From NCBI RefSeq assembly GCF_000007145.1, contig NC_003902.1, forward strand, positions 2,186,497-2,218,496: 32,000 bases of DNA, in the 5' to 3' direction. The stretch is from Xanthomonas campestris pv. campestris str. ATCC 33913. GTDB taxonomy: Bacteria > Pseudomonadota > Gammaproteobacteria > Xanthomonadales > Xanthomonadaceae. Positions 21,001 through 27,000 of this stretch are shown here, piece after piece. Numbering within the stretch: position 1 is the stretch's first letter; each line of letters opens with the position of its first letter. A program made the position numbers.

Positions 21001-24000
21001 GCCCACGCCACGACCGGAGAGGTCGGTGACGGCATCGGCGGTGGAGAAGCCCGGTGCGAAGATCAGATCCCACACCTGCGAATCAGTCGGGTTGTCCGGC
21101 ACGGCAATGCCGCGTTCGGCCGCTTTTTCCAGGATCTTGGCGCGATTGAGGCCACGGCCGTCGTCGCTGACTTCGATCACGATGTGACCGCCCTGGTGCG
21201 ATGCCGCCAGGGTGATGGTGCCGGTTTCGTCCTTGCCGGAGGCGCGGCGCGCATCGGGCATTTCCAGACCATGGTCGATCGAGTTGCGCACCAGGTGCAC
21301 CAACGGATCGGCAATCTTTTCGATCAGGCCCTTGTCCAGTTCCGTGCTTTCGCCAATCGTGCGCAGACGCACCTGCTTGCCGAGGCGGCTGGAGAGGTCG
21401 CGCACCAGACGCGGGAAGCGGCGGAACACCGCGTCCACCGGGAGCATGCGCACGCCAATGACTGCTTCCTGCAGATCGCGGGTATTGCGTTCGAGCAGAT
21501 CCAGGCCGGCAAACAACTGTTCGGCATGCGCCGGGTCCAGGCCGGTGGAGACCTGCTTGAGCATGGCCTGCGTGATCACCAGTTCGCCGACCAGGTTGAT
21601 CAGCGCATCGACCTTGTCGACGCTGACGCGGATGGAGCTTTCGGCTTCGGCAGCGGCGGCCTTGGCAGGCGTGGCGGCAGCGGCGGCAGCAGGTTCTGCA
21701 GCGGCGGTTGTCGCAACCGCGACGGCAGCAGTGCCAGCCGCTTCCACCGCCAGGCTCGGCGGCGGGCCGGGCACCGCCATCGGGCGGATGTCCAGCTCGC
21801 AGTCGTCCACGACCCAGGCAAAGGTGTCTTCGATCTTGCTGCGCGGAATCTTGCCGATCAGGCCCAGATCCCAGGCCAGGTAGGCTTCCAGCGGGTCGAT
21901 GTTCTCAAAGCCCGGCATGCGCTCCAGACGCGCGGCGATCTGCAGCGGGCCAAGATGCTCCAGCTCGCGGATGATGCGCAGCGGGTCGTTGCCGCTCATG
22001 AACAGCGACGGCGCCGGGGTGAAGCCGATGTGCCAGGCTTCGGGTTCTTCTTCCTTCGGCTTGGCGACGACCACGGCGGCCGGCGCTTCGCCGGCGAGCA
22101 CCGCGTTCAAGCGGGTGTGCACGGCCTTGACCGCTGCCGGGTCGGCCGGGGTGCCGTGTTCGGCTTCGCGCAACAGGGCGCGCAGCACGTCGACCGAGCC
22201 GAGCATGGCGTCGACCGCATTGGGTTCGAGTTGGCGCTTGTTGGAGCGCAGCTCGTCCAGCAGCGTTTCCAGCACGTGGGTCAGGCCGGCGACGGCTTCA
22301 AAGCCGAAGGTGGCCGCACCGCCCTTGATGGAGTGCGCGGCGCGGAACACCGAGTTGATGATTTCCGGGTCGCGGTTTCCCTCTTCCAGGGACAGCAGCC
22401 CGGCCTCCATCGCGTCGAGCCCTTCACGGCTTTCCTCGAAAAAGGTGGCGTGGAAACGTTGCAGGTCCATGCTCATGGGCGTGAAATCCGATCGTGAAAC
22501 GAGGAAGGGTTAACCCAGGACTTTCTGGACGGTGGCAATCAGCTGTTCGGGATTGAACGGCTTGACCAGCCAACCGGTCGCGCCGGCCGCCTTGCCTTCG
22601 GATTTCTTGTCGGCTGCCGACTCGGTGGTCAGCATCAGCATGGGCGTGAACTTGTAGTCCGGCAGCTGGCGCAGTTCGCGGATCAGCGAGATGCCGTCCA
22701 TGTTGGGCATGTTCACGTCGGTCACCACCGCATTGAAGCGCTGGCCCTTCGCGCGGCCCAGCGCCACGGCGCCGTCTTCGGCTTCTTCGACGGCAAAGCC
22801 GGCAGAGGTGAGGGCGAAAGAGACCATCTGGCGCATCGACGCCGAATCGTCCACCACCAAGATACGTGCGCTCATGCGGCGTTCTCCACAGATTTCAGGT
22901 TGTCATTGGATGCGGAAAGTCCGAGCGCGTCAGTGACGCCGAGCAGACGGGCCGCATCTCTAAAAGTGTCGTTGCAGCCATCGAATTCGGTCTGCAGCCC
23001 CGCACTGCGGCGGGCCTGCACGAAAGCGCAGAGCAGCTGCACGCTTGCGGTGTGGATGCGCCGGACTTCGCCGGCGTCAAGCACCAGCTCGCCGTCCTGC
23101 GTCAGGACTGCAGCCAGTTTTTGCTTGAGGTCGGCGCTGGTCTCGATGCCGAGATCCTCACCCAATATCACTGTGCTCATTGTTGCTCCGAACGGATGGT
23201 TCTATGCGTACTAACGGCGGCGGGCGGGAAAGCTTTAACGTTGAATCGGCGCATTGGTGCGCGGCACCATGCGCGCATTAATGCAGCAGGTGGGTGGCGT
23301 CGAGCAGGATCATCGGGTGATGGCCCAGGCGCGCCACGCCACGGAACAGGTTGTTGGAAATGCGGCACAGGCGGGCGTTGTCCGGCGGCTCGATCTGGTG
23401 ATCGGTGAGGCTGGTGACGTCTTCCACCGCCGACACGCGCAGGCCCATGGTTTCGCCGTTCTCTTCCAGCACCACCACGCGGGTGTGCAGGTCCATGTCC
23501 ACCGGCGATGAGCCCAGGTGTATGCCCAGGTCGATCACCGGCACCACCTGGCCACGCAGGTTCATGATGCCGAGCATGGCGCTGGGCGTACCGCGCAGCG
23601 GCAGCAGCGGCACCGGCAATACCACTTCCTGCACCTTGAGCAGTTCCAGCGCATAGGTTTGTTCGCCGCAGCGCAGACGCAGCCAGCGCGTACTGCGCTC
23701 GCTGGCACGGCGCTCGGCGTGGATATGTTCGGCCTGGCCCGGTGCCAGCAGTGCCTGCAGGCCCTGCGGGTAGACCGGTGCCGGCGCAGCACGCGCGGGT
23801 GCCGGTGCCGGACGTGCAGGTGCGGGGACGGGGACGGCCACCGGCGCGGCGTCCAGCCCGAAAGCCGGGTCCGAATCCAGTTCTGCCAGCAGGTCGGCGG
23901 CGATCATGTCCGCGCTGGGTTCTGCGCTGGCGAATGCCGGGTCGGCATCCATCTCGGCCATCAGATCTGCAGTGCTCATGAATGGGCTGGGCGCGGCCGT

Positions 24001-27000
24001 GGCAAAGGCGGGGTCCGCATCCATCTCGGCGAGGAAATCCGCCGCGATATCTGCGGCGCTCGGTGCAGCCACCACCGGCGGGCCGAAGGCGGGGTCGGCA
24101 TCCATTTCGGCCAGGAAATCGGCGGCGATGTCGGCGGCACTGGGTGCCACCACGCGCGGCGCGAAGGCCGGGTCGGCATCCATCTCGGCCAGGAAATCCG
24201 CCGCGATGTCGTCGGCGCTCGGCGCGGCAATCACTGGCGGGCCGAACGCCGGGTCGGCGTCCATTTCGGCGAGAAAATCGGCGGCGATCGCTTCGGCGCT
24301 GAGCACCGGGGCGCTCACCTGCGGTGCTGCAGTGGCCTGCACGGGCGGTTCCGCCAGTGCCAGGTCATCGGCCTGCGCGAGGTCTGCCTCGGCAGCCACT
24401 GGCGCTGCGCTGGCGACGGCGGTGACCGTGGCCACGTCGATCTCGACGCCGGCATCGTGCAGCAGGCCTTCCAGATAATCGTCCAGCTCACCATTGGCGG
24501 TGTGGTTGCTCATGCCGCTTGCTCCATCCGCATCGCGTCATCGGCCAGCACCCATTCCAGCGCGCGGCGATACGCGGACAAGCCGCGGCCCTGGTAATCG
24601 ATGGTGGTGGCCGGCACGGTGAGGGCGGCGGCGTTGCAGATGCGTGTATCCATCGGCACCGCGTCTTCCCACACCACCGGGCCGTAGGTGGTCTGCATTT
24701 CTTTCAGCGTTTCGTTGCCGGCGCGGGTGCGGCGGTCGAACAGGGTGGGCAGGATCGACACCGGCAAGTCGCGGCGGCGCGAGCGCTGCACCATGTCGGC
24801 GGTGCGCACCATGCTGGCCAGGCCGTGCAAGGCGAGCGGTTCGGCCTGGGTCGGCACCACCACGCGGTCGCAGGCGGCCAGCGCGTTGATCATCAACAGG
24901 CCCAGCGTGGGCGGGCAGTCGAGCAGGATGTAGTCGTGCTGGCCGGCATGCCGGGCCATGGCGTTCTGCAGGGCCAGGCCCAGGCCAGGCTGGTTGGCGC
25001 TGCGGCGCTCCAGCGTGGCCAGGGCAGCCTGTGCGCACACGTAGGACAGGCCGGGGATGGCGCTTTCGTGCGCCAGGCTGGCCAGGTCGCTCGGCGGGGT
25101 GCCGAACAGGTCCAGCACGCCGCGCGGCGGCGGGTCCACGGCCACGCCGAACGCGCGGGTGAGTGACGAGTGCGGATCGAGGTCGATCAACAGCACCCGG
25201 TGCCCGAGCGCGGCCAGGCCGCGACCCAGTGCCAGCGTCGTGGTGGTCTTGCCCACGCCGCCCTTTTGGTTGGCGATTGCCCAGATACGCATCTCAGTGC
25301 ACTCCTTCAATTACGGCGGGGACGGAACTTGTGCCGCTTTCGGTGGTGACGGCCGTTTGGCCGCCGTCAGACTTGGGAAGCTTCGGCGCCCCGGCGGCGG
25401 TCGCATGGATCTGCGATGGCGGATCGGGTGCGAGTGAGCCAGCCGAGTCAGCGAGGATGATCAACACCACACGCCGGTTCGCATTCCGTCCCGCCTCGGT
25501 GCTGTTATCGGCACGTGCGCGGAATTCTCCATAGCCAACCATCGCCAATCGTTGCGGGGCGACGCCTTCATCGGCGAACAGGTGCACCACGCTGGCGGCA
25601 CGCGCGGCCGACAGTTCCCAGTTGGAGGGGAACTGCGCGGTGGCGATGGGCTGGTTGTCGGTATAGCCCTCCACGCGCACGCCGTTGGGTGCATCGCGCA
25701 ACACTGCCGCCAGGGTGGACAGGGTGCCGCGCGCGCTCCCGGCCAGCAGCGCAGAGCCGGTGACGAACAGGATGTCGCTGTTGATCTCCACCTCGATCCA
25801 CAGATCGCGGCGGCGGATGGTGATGAGTTGCTTGTCGATCAGCGGCGACAGGGTCTTGTTCAACTGCTGCGCCACCGCATCCATCTGCCGCTGCGCGCGC
25901 GCCAGCTGCGCCTGATTGCGCAGCGACACCGGCATGCGCATCTGCGCGGCCATCGACGGCAGGATGGTGGGGTCGGTAGGCCCGTTGGAGGCGGCCATCG
26001 GCGCGCCGGCCTTGATCACCGAAGGGCGGTCGTAGTCGGCGCCCAGGCTCTGGGTGTTGCCCAGCTGCACGGGGCTTGCAGCCTTGGACGAGCCACCGAA
26101 GGCGGTGGTCAGCGCCTGCGCCATCACCTTGTACTTGCCTTCGTTGAGCGAGGAGATGGCGTACATGACCACGAAGAACGCCAGCAGCAGCGTCATCAGA
26201 TCGGCATACGGAATCGCCCACGCTTCGTGGTTGCCATGTTCTTCGTGATGTTTGCGACGGCGGGCCATGGGGGGGCTAATGCAAGTAGCCTGCCAATTTC
26301 GACTCGATGTTGCGCGGGTTCTCGCCCTGGGCGATCGCGATCAAGCCTTCGATCGCCATTTCGCGCTCGTTGGTGCTGCAATGGATGACGCTCTTGAGCT
26401 TGGCGGCCACCGGCAGGAACAGCAGGTTGGCCGAGGCGATGCCGTAGATGGTGGCGGTGAACGCGGCAGCGATGCCGTGGCCGAGCATGGACGGGTCGGC
26501 CAGGTTCTTCATCACCGCCATCAGGCCCAGCACCGCGCCGATGATGCCCAGCGTGGGCGCGTAGATGCCCATGCCTTCGAACACCTTGGCGGCGGCAAGA
26601 TCCTGGCGCTCCTGGTTGTCCACTTCGATCTCGAGCATATGCCGCATGGATTCGGGCTCCACGCCATCGACCAGCATCTGCAGGCCTTTGCGCAGGAACG
26701 CGTCGTCCTGGCGCGGGAGCTGGTCTTCCAGGCCCAGCAGGCCCTGACGACGGGCGATGTTGCTCCATTCGACGATGCGCGCCAGCAGCTGCGGGCCGTC
26801 GCTGGCCGGCGGCTGGATCACCCAGCGCACAATCTTGAAGGCGCGCCGGAAAACTGCCGGGGAGGTGTGCAGCAAAATCGCCGCCACGGTACCGACGATC
26901 ACAATCAGGAAGGCAGCCGGCGACCACAGCGACGAAATCCCGGCGCCTTTCAACACGCTGCCGCCTACGATCGCCACGATCGCAAGCACCAGTCCAATGA

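What the first reader, a model, noticed from the sequence alone, without database searches (positions are those of the whole stretch)
23860..24297. Six tandem acidic 'IAADFLAEMDADPAF' repeats in the ParP-like CheW protein, kept at the peptide level despite synonymous drift
The N-terminal half of the 411-aa CheW-like protein contains six copies (period 23-27 aa) of an acidic, amphipathic motif ending in PAF. They are separated by short Pro/Ala linkers (GPPV(I/V)AAPSA(D/A)D). Copies 1 and 2 (24244-24288 and 24163-24207) encode the same 15 residues but differ at 7 third-codon positions and at no amino-acid position. The repeats are therefore old and under purifying selection on the peptide, not a recent slippage product. 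In Vibrio, ParP uses its N-terminal region to bind the ParA-like ParC and its CheW-like domain to enter the receptor array. A multivalent array of short linear motifs here could bind several ParC dimers or another partner. Short acidic amphipathic peptides also dock CheY in CheZ and FliM, but that parallel is only an analogy. I am not aware of this repeat having been described, and I cannot search to confirm that.
Basis: partly seen in the sequence, partly recalled or inferred. Interest (0 to 1): 0.7.

Follow-up and report, generated by a model that had tools for sequence, protein, structure and literature searches.

The report
Repeated docking motif in Xanthomonas ParP
The protein that tethers the chemotaxis receptor array to the cell pole in Xanthomonas carries six conserved copies of a short acidic helix in its flexible middle, and related bacteria gained these copies as their kinase CheA lost a similar docking repeat.

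Summary
The 411-aa protein (23278..24513, minus strand; Xanthomonas campestris) is a ParP orthologue. It has an N-terminal LDDYLxxLL motif, a disordered acidic linker and a C-terminal CheW-like domain, and it is encoded directly after parC. The linker holds six copies of IAADFLAEMDADPAF. Four copies are identical in peptide but differ at 10 nucleotide columns, all third codon positions (pN = 0, pS 0.4-0.9).

The motif occurs only in ParP of Xanthomonas and some close relatives (Lysobacteraceae), at 0-8 copies. It was not found in any other protein context or in any held paper.

New finding: across 36 genomes, ParP repeat number falls as the number of EFExLLD "LID" repeats rises in the flagellar-cluster CheA (Spearman -0.86; independent contrasts r = -0.70). 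LID is the region reported to bind ParP's CheW-like domain. Main-clade Xanthomonas has 0 LID repeats and 3-7 ParP repeats.

My best reading is that the ParP repeats functionally replace the CheA LID as a multivalent docking array. The partner is unproven. Sequence similarity to LID, to the ParP N-terminal motif or to the CheZ tail is not significant.

This is a new variant of a known system.

The parts
23278..24513 (-). parP: 411-aa ParP orthologue (annotated 'CheW' in databases)
   Evidence: ORF. 99% identical to X. campestris 'chemotaxis protein CheW'. Start codon overlaps the parC stop (ATGA).
24454..24492 (-). N-terminal conserved motif GELDDYLEGLLHD (aa 8-20), the presumed ParC-contact helix
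   Evidence: [VAI]LDDYLxxLL is present once in every ParP of the 80 related loci. It lies at the position of the ParC contact predicted in P. putida ParP, residues 15-25. That it binds ParC is inferred, not tested.
24244..24288 (-). repeat 1, IAADFLAEMDADPAF (aa 76-90)
   Evidence: Predicted helix aa 73-85.
24163..24207 (-). repeat 2, IAADFLAEMDADPAF (aa 103-117). X. campestris pv. campestris forms of 383-385 aa have one fewer canonical copy.
   Evidence: Predicted helix aa 100-112.
24085..24129 (-). repeat 3, IAADFLAEMDADPAF (aa 129-143)
   Evidence: Predicted helix aa 126-138.
24004..24048 (-). repeat 4, IAADFLAEMDADPAF (aa 156-170)
   Evidence: Predicted helix aa 153-165.
23932..23976 (-). 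repeat 5, variant STADLMAEMDADPAF (aa 180-194), positionally conserved across main-clade Xanthomonas
23860..23904 (-). repeat 6, variant IAADLLAELDSDPAF (aa 204-218)
23764..23859 (-). Pro/Ala-rich linker (aa 219-250) between the repeat array and the CheW-like domain
   Evidence: Sequence. Composition (aa 219-275: 19% Pro, 28% Ala).
23284..23682 (-). CheW-like domain (aa 278-410), equivalent to the 'AIF' domain of Vibrio ParP
   Evidence: Pfam PF01584, E = 1.9e-31. Closest solved structures are CheW 2ho9, 8c5v and 2qdl.
24510..25292 (-). parC: ParA/MinD-family ATPase gene immediately upstream of parP
   Evidence: Pfam AAA_31 and CbiA. Best PDB relatives are ParA/Soj proteins. Syntenic in all complete related loci.
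20473..23180 (-). Downstream genes of the same strand cluster: STAS (22872..23180), cheY (22510..22875), cheA (20473..22476). This CheA has no LID motif.
   Evidence: The order is conserved in every related locus that extends that far.

Best explanation
Shown:
- The gene is the Xanthomonas orthologue of ParP, the adaptor that links chemoreceptor arrays to the polar ParA-like ATPase ParC.
- Its disordered, very acidic linker (net charge -30 over 146 residues) contains six short helices of about 13 residues, each capped by DPAF.
- Each copy is kept by purifying selection, so each behaves as a short linear binding motif.

Inferred:
- The array is a multivalent docking module that took over the job of the EFExLLD 'LID' repeats of the flagellar-cluster CheA.
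- In Vibrio, the LID is the part of CheA that binds ParP's CheW-like domain.
- In the lineage leading to Xanthomonas, CheA lost these repeats stepwise (3, 2, 1, 0) while ParP gained 2 to 8 copies of its own motif.
- I therefore propose that the ParP repeats engage the same kind of receptor as the LID: a CheW-like domain. This could be ParP's own domain in trans, or CheA-P5 or CheW in the array.
- One ParP would then make several weak contacts that hold ParP, CheA and the array together, while the single N-terminal motif holds ParC.
For: Identity as ParP:
- Synteny motC-motD-parC-parP with a CheW-like C-terminus.
- Relatives show the full fliA-cheY-cheZ-cheA-motC-motD-parC-parP order known from Pseudomonas.

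Motif under selection:
- 10 of 10 variable columns are synonymous.
- The consensus is kept across the genus.
- The copies are predicted as helices.

Specificity:
- The motif was found only in ParP. phmmer against 1.84 billion representatives gave no real hit in another protein context.
- The regex hits only parP in 1.34 Mb of loci.

Link to LID:
- The upstream CheA carries DLIxEDEFEALLDQLHGG repeats. This matches the motif described in P. putida as the predicted ParP contact, reported as exclusive to ParC/ParP organisms.
- The AIF-LID interaction is reported experimentally for Vibrio.

Counts (LID repeats / ParP repeats):
- S. acidaminiphila group: 3 / 0.
- Most Stenotrophomonas: 2 / 0.
- S. 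rhizophila group: 2 / 1-3.
- A mixed clade and early-branching Xanthomonas: 1 / 3-6.
- Main-clade Xanthomonas, strain USHLN149 and, independently, Pseudoxanthomonas JBR18: 0 / 6-8.
- All 62 main-clade Xanthomonas clusters of this CheA, including X. campestris pv. raphani, have 0 LID motifs.
- Spearman rho = -0.86 (n = 36). Independent contrasts r = -0.70, permutation p = 5e-5.

Other points:
- A bridging form exists: one Stenotrophomonas ParP has GFEDLLDEVRNDPSLSG, an FExLLD core with the DPxL tail.
- No clade-specific substitutions appear in ParC or the CheW-like domain between motif-bearing and motif-free lineages. This fits a pre-existing receptor surface.
Against: - No binding was tested or modelled. 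The one AlphaFold2 run did not fold the CheW-like domain (mean pLDDT 43), so it says nothing about docking.
- Profile comparison of the ParP repeat with LID units is not significant (hhalign P = 0.053). It is no better than with the ParP N-terminal motif (P = 0.055). A position matrix of the repeat core scores LID units no better than shuffles (p = 0.13).
- The invariant residues differ: DPA[FL] in ParP versus DEFExLLDxLHG in LID.
- The inverse trend rests on few evolutionary events: one 2-to-1 and two 1-to-0 LID losses. It uses a gene tree from the same locus. Early-branching Xanthomonas with 6 repeats still keep one LID.
- P. aeruginosa ParP showed no self-interaction in two-hybrid assays, though I could not retrieve that sequence to see whether it has such repeats.
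- I could not obtain Pseudomonas or Vibrio ParP sequences to confirm the ancestral state.
Confidence: 0.4

Rival explanations
1. Multivalent ParC binding. Each repeat is an extra copy of the ParC-contact helix, so one ParP captures several ParC dimers and strengthens polar anchoring.
For: - The repeat core and the N-terminal motif share a loose pattern D-[YF]-L-x-x-[LM]-x-x-D.
- ParC is the only non-acidic protein of the operon (pI 7.75, against 4.0-6.2 for the others).
- In P. putida models the same ParC surface is predicted to accept two different peptide segments, ParP 15-25 and FimV 589-599.
Against: - The similarity is not significant (hhalign P = 0.055; matrix p = 0.09).
- The invariant residues of the two motifs differ. 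DDYL is strictly kept in the N-terminal motif, whereas the aromatic position varies (F/L/V) in the repeats and DPA[FL] is absent from the N-terminal motif.
- It does not explain why repeat number tracks loss of the CheA LID.
- There are no ParC substitutions specific to motif-bearing lineages.
Confidence: 0.2
2. Docking sites for another partner that was not identified here. Examples are the polar landmark FimV/HubP, a DipA-like phosphodiesterase, or a Xanthomonas-specific protein encoded elsewhere in the genome.
For: - The motif is a class of its own, with no significant match to any of the three known acidic helices.
- ParP is reported to contact FimV in P. putida and DipA in P. aeruginosa.
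- Gene content of the locus is identical with and without the motif, so a partner, if lineage-specific, must lie elsewhere.
Against: - No candidate was found.
- The reported FimV contact is on ParP's CheW-like domain, not on the linker.
- This reading does not by itself predict the inverse relation with LID.
Confidence: 0.15
3. CheY docking. The repeats mimic the CheY-binding helices of the CheZ C-terminus or the FliM N-terminus and concentrate CheY or CheY-P at the array.
For: - The CheZ C-terminus in these genomes is VDADDLLSDLGL.
- Of the three comparison sets it scores best against the repeat-core matrix (p = 0.02 vs shuffles).
- The upstream CheA lacks a P2 CheY-docking domain, so peptide-type docking of CheY is conceivable.
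Against: - The p-value does not survive three comparisons, and the score (1.1) is far below the repeats' own score (24.5).
- The known CheY-binding peptides are terminal, whereas these repeats are internal.
- CheY in the operon is 94-100% identical whether or not ParP has repeats.
Confidence: 0.1
4. No specific partner. The array is an acidic, partly helical spacer that sets tether length or keeps the linker extended by charge repulsion.
For: - Linker length varies widely among relatives (ParP 257-490 aa).
- Some lineages have only Pro/Ala linkers.
- Net charge is -30.
Against: A spacer would not need exact residues. Here 15 residues are identical in four copies despite near-saturated synonymous change, while the true spacers between copies do vary. 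The motif consensus, including F, M and DPAF, is kept across the genus.
Confidence: 0.1

Closest known systems
ParP of Vibrio and Pseudomonas (ParC/ParP array-positioning system)
   Same: - Gene directly after parC in the mot/che cluster.
- N-terminal short motif, long Pro-rich acidic disordered linker, C-terminal CheW-like (AIF) domain.
- The relatives' gene order fliA-cheY-cheZ-cheA-motC-motD-parC-parP matches Pseudomonas.
   Different: - The linker here carries 3-8 copies of a strictly conserved 15-residue motif. Nothing of the kind is described for Vibrio or Pseudomonas ParP in the papers read.
- The cognate CheA of main-clade Xanthomonas lacks the LID repeats that those systems use.
- parP is followed by STAS-cheY-cheA instead of cheW.
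EFExLLD 'LID' repeats of CheA (P. putida preprint 10.1101/2025.10.27.684771; LID of Vibrio CheA)
   Same: - Tandem acidic units of about 19-30 residues with one aromatic residue, separated by Gly/Pro/Ala linkers.
- Located in a disordered region of an array protein of ParC/ParP organisms.
- Variable copy number (0-3).
- Copy number is complementary to the ParP repeats.
   Different: - Different protein and different invariant residues (DEFExLLDxLHG versus [FL]LAEMDxDPAF).
- Profile similarity is not significant.
- Homology is not shown.
CheY-binding peptides (CheZ C-terminus, FliM N-terminus)
   Same: Short acidic helix with the pattern D-hydrophobic-L-small-acidic-hydrophobic. There is a weak matrix match to the local CheZ tail DDLLSDLGL.
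   Different: Those peptides are single and terminal. The ParP motif is internal, repeated, and ends in DPAF. The match is marginal.
Acidic repeat regions of the polar landmarks HubP/FimV
   Same: Highly acidic, repetitive cytoplasmic regions in proteins of the same polar network. This rests on my own knowledge and on the abstract of PMC12918733 seen.
   Different: The whole-library search with the ParP N-terminal half found no real match outside ParP. No sequence relation was found.

Membership tests
ParP (ParC/ParP system) | Encoded immediately downstream of a ParA-like ATPase gene (parC) in a motility/chemotaxis cluster | tested here: met
   The parC stop overlaps the parP start. The order motC-motD-parC-parP is found in the window and in all complete related loci.
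ParP (ParC/ParP system) | C-terminal CheW-like (AIF) domain | tested here: met
   PF01584, E = 1.9e-31, aa 278-410. CheW structures are the best PDB matches.
ParP (ParC/ParP system) | [quoted passage not shown] | tested here: inconclusive
   A conserved N-terminal LDDYLxxLL motif and a Pro/Ala-rich linker are present. Binding to ParC cannot be tested here, and no Vibrio or Pseudomonas sequence was obtained for alignment.
ParP (ParC/ParP system) | Partner CheA carries the LID region (EFExLLD repeats) that binds ParP | tested here: not met
   The window CheA has none. The flagellar-cluster CheA of all 62 main-clade Xanthomonas clusters has 0 motifs. Relatives have 1-3.
ParP (ParC/ParP system) | Interacts with MCP tips and CheA and localises arrays to the pole | not testable with these tools
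   Needs two-hybrid assays or microscopy.
Canonical CheW coupling protein | Single-domain protein of about 160 aa that matches the CheW equivalog model | tested here: not met
   411 aa with a 275-aa N-terminal extension. NCBIfam PRK10612 score is 67, against a cut-off of 260.
CheA LID-type EFExLLD repeat | Core motif [DE][DE]F[ED]x[LM][LM][DNE] | tested here: not met
   The regex has 0 hits in any ParP linker. All 65 hits in the loci lie in the upstream cheA.
CheA LID-type EFExLLD repeat | Detectable profile similarity | tested here: inconclusive
   hhalign P = 0.053. Matrix vs shuffles p = 0.13.
CheA LID-type EFExLLD repeat | Binds the CheW-like domain of ParP | not testable with these tools
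   No multimer modelling was available. The monomer AF2 model failed to fold the domain.
CheZ/FliM-type CheY-binding peptide | Terminal position and the LLxxLGF / LSQxEIDALL consensus | tested here: not met
   The repeats are internal. Only a weak core resemblance exists (p = 0.02 before correction).

The most novel reading that the evidence does not exclude
A protein-docking motif has moved between partners during evolution. In Xanthomonas, the ParP-binding repeats of CheA were lost and replaced by a multicopy motif on ParP itself. This turned ParP into a self-crosslinking, multivalent (possibly condensate-forming) scaffold that holds the chemoreceptor array and its kinase at the pole.
Probability: 0.3. 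Interest if true: 0.75.

Novelty: new variant of a known kind. Interest (0 to 1): 0.6.

Why it matters
How polar chemoreceptor arrays are held together and anchored is known mainly from Vibrio, with recent work in Pseudomonas.

This locus offers a natural series of genomes in which the number of docking repeats on CheA falls from 3 to 0 as the number on ParP rises from 0 to 8. That series makes the role of such repeats (valency, which side carries them, what they bind) directly testable by peptide binding, repeat-number variants and swaps.

If the repeats replace the LID, it would be a clear case of a short linear motif relocating between interacting proteins. It would also explain why Xanthomonas is an exception to the reported rule that CheA of ParC/ParP organisms carries LID repeats.

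In my understanding, Xanthomonas chemotaxis also contributes to plant entry, so array organisation has some applied interest.

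Tried and rejected
- **Other protein contexts.** phmmer of ParP aa 1-222 against 1.84 billion representatives gave 9 hits. 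The real ones are Xanthomonas fragments and one Pseudoxanthomonas ParP. An FG-GAP repeat protein and an ankyrin protein are spurious.
- **Homology of the repeat to other motifs.** hhalign against the LID and against the ParP N-terminal motif was non-significant for both. Position-matrix scoring was marginal only for the CheZ tail. I therefore do not claim homology to any of them.
- **AlphaFold2 of full-length ParP.** I hoped that one of four identical repeats would stand out if docked. The shallow, Xanthomonas-only alignment gave mean pLDDT 43 and an unfolded CheW domain. Only the helical propensity of the repeats is usable.
- **Co-evolving receptor.** I looked for columns with disjoint residues between motif-bearing and motif-free lineages in ParC, the CheW-like domain, STAS, CheY, MotC, MotD and CheA. 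Essentially none were found.
- **Locus gene content versus motif presence.** The gene order is the same in all related loci, so it is uninformative.
- **Pseudomonas sequences.** A search with the P. putida LID repeat returned only fragments. The one contig fetched ended inside cheA. The PNAS 2014 and J Bacteriol 2018 ParP papers are not held.
- **Amphipathicity.** The hydrophobic moment is not above shuffles.
- **Concerted evolution.** Rejected as the main force. Within-gene synonymous distance is almost as large as between species. The CGCG/AGAG column pattern does suggest an old duplication of a two-repeat block.

Full report
**What is there**

The window is from Xanthomonas campestris. The protein of ORF 23278..24513 (minus strand) is 99% identical to database entries from X. 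campestris pv. raphani named 'chemotaxis protein CheW'.

The minus strand carries motC (26276..27106), motD (25294..26268), a ParA/MinD-type ATPase gene (24510..25292), the 411-aa gene, a STAS gene (22872..23180), cheY (22510..22875), cheA (20473..22476) and then a run of MCP genes.

The 411-aa protein has a CheW domain only at aa 278-410 (Pfam E = 1.9e-31). It scores far below NCBI's CheW equivalog cut-off (67 vs 260). Its start codon overlaps the ATPase gene's stop. This is the ParC/ParP arrangement described for Vibrio and Pseudomonas: an N-terminal ParC-interaction region, a long proline-rich linker and a C-terminal CheW-like 'AIF' domain.

**The observation**

Copies 1-4 are identical 15-mers (IAADFLAEMDADPAF). 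Copies 5 and 6 are variants. Copies 1 and 2 differ at 7 nucleotides, all synonymous.

Over copies 1-4, 10 nucleotide columns vary. All are third positions, so pN = 0 while pS is 0.40-0.93. Ten random substitutions would all be synonymous with probability about 2e-7. The linkers between copies do accept replacements (pN = 0.12).

Canonical copies within one gene differ at 3.9 nucleotides on average, against 5.0 between species. The copies are therefore old and not homogenised. A CGCG/AGAG pattern hints at an ancient duplication of a two-copy block.

AlphaFold2 predicts each copy as a helix of about 13 residues followed by a short turn (pLDDT 57-77). The model as a whole is poor. The array has net charge -30.

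**Distribution**

Among 120 Xanthomonas homologues the consensus [IL]AAD[FL]LAEMD[AS]DPAF is kept. Copy number ranges from 3 (X. oryzae, 340 aa) to 7. It differs within X. campestris: 5 copies in the 383-385 aa forms and 6 in the 409-411 aa forms.

A search of 1.84 billion representative proteins with the N-terminal half found no other protein context. The only distant true hit is the ParP of Pseudoxanthomonas sp. JBR18, which has six copies of a variant (DIAASILAEAESDPALAAIMA). No held paper prints the motif.

**Relatives**

A genome scan with the CheW-like domain returned 80 loci from Xanthomonas, Stenotrophomonas and other Lysobacteraceae. Every locus that extends far enough has the same gene order. 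All ParPs start with one [VAI]LDDYLxxLL motif.

The linkers differ by lineage:

| Lineage | Linker motif | Copies |
|---|---|---|
| Main-clade Xanthomonas | the motif above | 3-7 |
| Early-branching Xanthomonas (translucens, albilineans, sacchari group) | IAAAVLAEADxDPALAGIMSQQA | 3-6 |
| Strain USHLN149 | IAADLLAEMDSDPAF | 7-8 |
| Several Stenotrophomonas MAGs and '[Pseudomonas] boreopolis' | related forms | 2-4 |
| S. rhizophila group | LALLDELLNDPALG | 1-3 |
| Many other Stenotrophomonas | unrelated motifs (PGDSAELEAAFEAAL and others) | - |
| S. acidaminiphila / nitritireducens group | Pro/Ala linker only | 0 |

The common core is hydrophobic-L-[AD]-E-x-x-x-D-P-[AS]-[FL]. A regex for it hits 235 times in six-frame translations of 1.34 Mb, always inside parP.

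**The lead that changes the interpretation**

In most relatives, motC is preceded by fliA-cheY-cheZ-cheA. This is the Pseudomonas-type order, confirmed by Pfam for one locus.

This upstream CheA has no P2 domain. Between P1 and the dimerisation domain it carries units DLIxEDEFEALLDQLHGGAAPG. A 2025-26 P. putida preprint describes the same EFExLLD repeats. It places them over the LID region, predicts that they contact ParP's CheW-like domain, and reports them as exclusive to CheAs of ParC/ParP organisms. The AIF-LID interaction is experimental in Vibrio.

The number of LID units is complementary to the number of ParP repeats:

| Lineage | LID units | ParP repeats |
|---|---|---|
| S. acidaminiphila group | 3 | 0 |
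| Most Stenotrophomonas | 2 | 0 |
| S. rhizophila group | 2 | 1-3 |
| A mixed clade and early-branching Xanthomonas | 1 | 3-6 |
| X. hortorum, X. maliensis, USHLN149 | 0 | 6-8 |
| Pseudoxanthomonas JBR18 (on a separate branch) | 0 | 6 |

A protein search showed 0 LID motifs in all 62 main-clade Xanthomonas clusters of this CheA, including X. campestris pv. raphani. In the window itself this cheA is not present, because a TonB-dependent receptor gene lies upstream of motC.

Spearman rho is -0.86 (n = 36). Independent contrasts on a locus gene tree give r = -0.70 (p about 2e-6; permutation p = 5e-5).

Caveats: few independent transitions underlie this result, the tree is a neighbour-joining tree built from the same locus, and the counts are small integers.

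**Mechanism**

What is shown: a ParP orthologue with an array of selected short helices that are found only in ParP linkers.

What is inferred: the array replaces the CheA LID as a multivalent docking module. It would then most likely contact a CheW-like domain (ParP's own in trans, CheA-P5 or CheW), while the single N-terminal motif binds ParC. I give this 0.4.

It is not supported by sequence similarity. hhalign gives P = 0.053 for repeat vs LID and 0.055 for repeat vs the N-terminal motif. A matrix of the repeat core scores LID (p = 0.13) and the N-terminal motif (p = 0.09) no better than shuffles. It scores the local CheZ tail VDADDLLSDLGL only marginally better (p = 0.02). The motif is therefore a class of its own.

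No lineage-specific substitutions in ParC or the CheW-like domain accompany its presence. This fits a pre-existing receptor surface but does not identify it.

**Rivals**

- ParC binding (0.2).
- An unidentified partner such as FimV or DipA (0.15).
- CheY docking (0.1).
- A pure spacer (0.1), which the residue-level conservation argues against.

**Comparison with what is known, and verdict**

The protein passes the structural and syntenic tests for ParP. It fails one reported correlate of the system, because its CheA has no LID.

The repeat is not a member of the LID motif family by sequence. It may work like one.

I rate it a new variant of a known kind, with interest 0.6. It is not a new system. 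It is an undescribed, strongly selected feature with a specific comparative pattern that makes ParP-CheA docking testable.

Noticed in passing
window 14074..16245 (-): An sCache_2-type MCP is split by an in-frame stop at 15751-15753 ('GEKDPV*KTSYA') into ORFs 15751..16245 and 14074..15711. It is probably a pseudogene or a sequencing error. Its C-terminus (ALLASY) also lacks the pentapeptide carried by its neighbours.
   Followed up: partly
window 460..20013 (-), MCP genes: Five MCPs end in an xWxxF pentapeptide (SWHEF, QWQNF, DWAEF, SWQEF, DWQEF). This is the CheR/CheB tethering motif known from enteric receptors.
   Followed up: no
window 22872..23180 (-): A STAS-domain gene sits between parP and cheY, with a 4-nt overlap with cheY. 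It is present in every related locus that covers this position. Its role in a chemotaxis operon is unexplained.
   Followed up: partly
window 20473..22476 (-), CheA aa ~130-280: The CheA downstream of parP has about 150 residues between the Hpt and dimerisation domains with no Pfam match (no recognised P2). The stretch includes a conserved-looking segment, WHIGFTP...GNDPLRIIRELEHLG.
   Followed up: no
window 27810..30983 (+): A TonB-dependent receptor gene occupies the place upstream of motC where X. hortorum, X. maliensis, early-branching Xanthomonas and Stenotrophomonas have fliA-cheY-cheZ-cheA. The flagellar-cluster cheA has thus been separated from parC-parP in X. campestris.
   Followed up: partly
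L011 (X. phaseoli pv. phaseoli ATCC 49119, CP094243.1) ~9200..10474: parP appears frameshifted inside the repeat array. A motif copy is read in a different frame from the CheW-like domain. This is either a real inactivation or an assembly error in a repetitive stretch.
   Followed up: no
L043-L078 (Stenotrophomonas ParP linkers): Other lineage-specific linker motifs occur where the DPAF-type repeat is absent: PGDSAELEAAFEAAL (1-3 copies), EPTWDDLPDEVIYET and DSPxLQAAFDVAAG. ParP linkers seem to be a hot spot for gain of short motifs.
   Followed up: partly
window 24004..24288 (-): Synonymous columns in repeats 1-4 follow an alternating pattern (CGCG, CGCG, AGAG). This suggests that the array grew by duplication of a two-repeat (about 160-nt) block.
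   Followed up: partly
window 24454..24513 (-), ParP aa 1-30: The presumed ParC-contact N-terminus is acidic (GELDDYLEGLLHD). Partners of ParA/MinD ATPases are generally described as using positively charged N-termini (PMC10241942).
   Followed up: no
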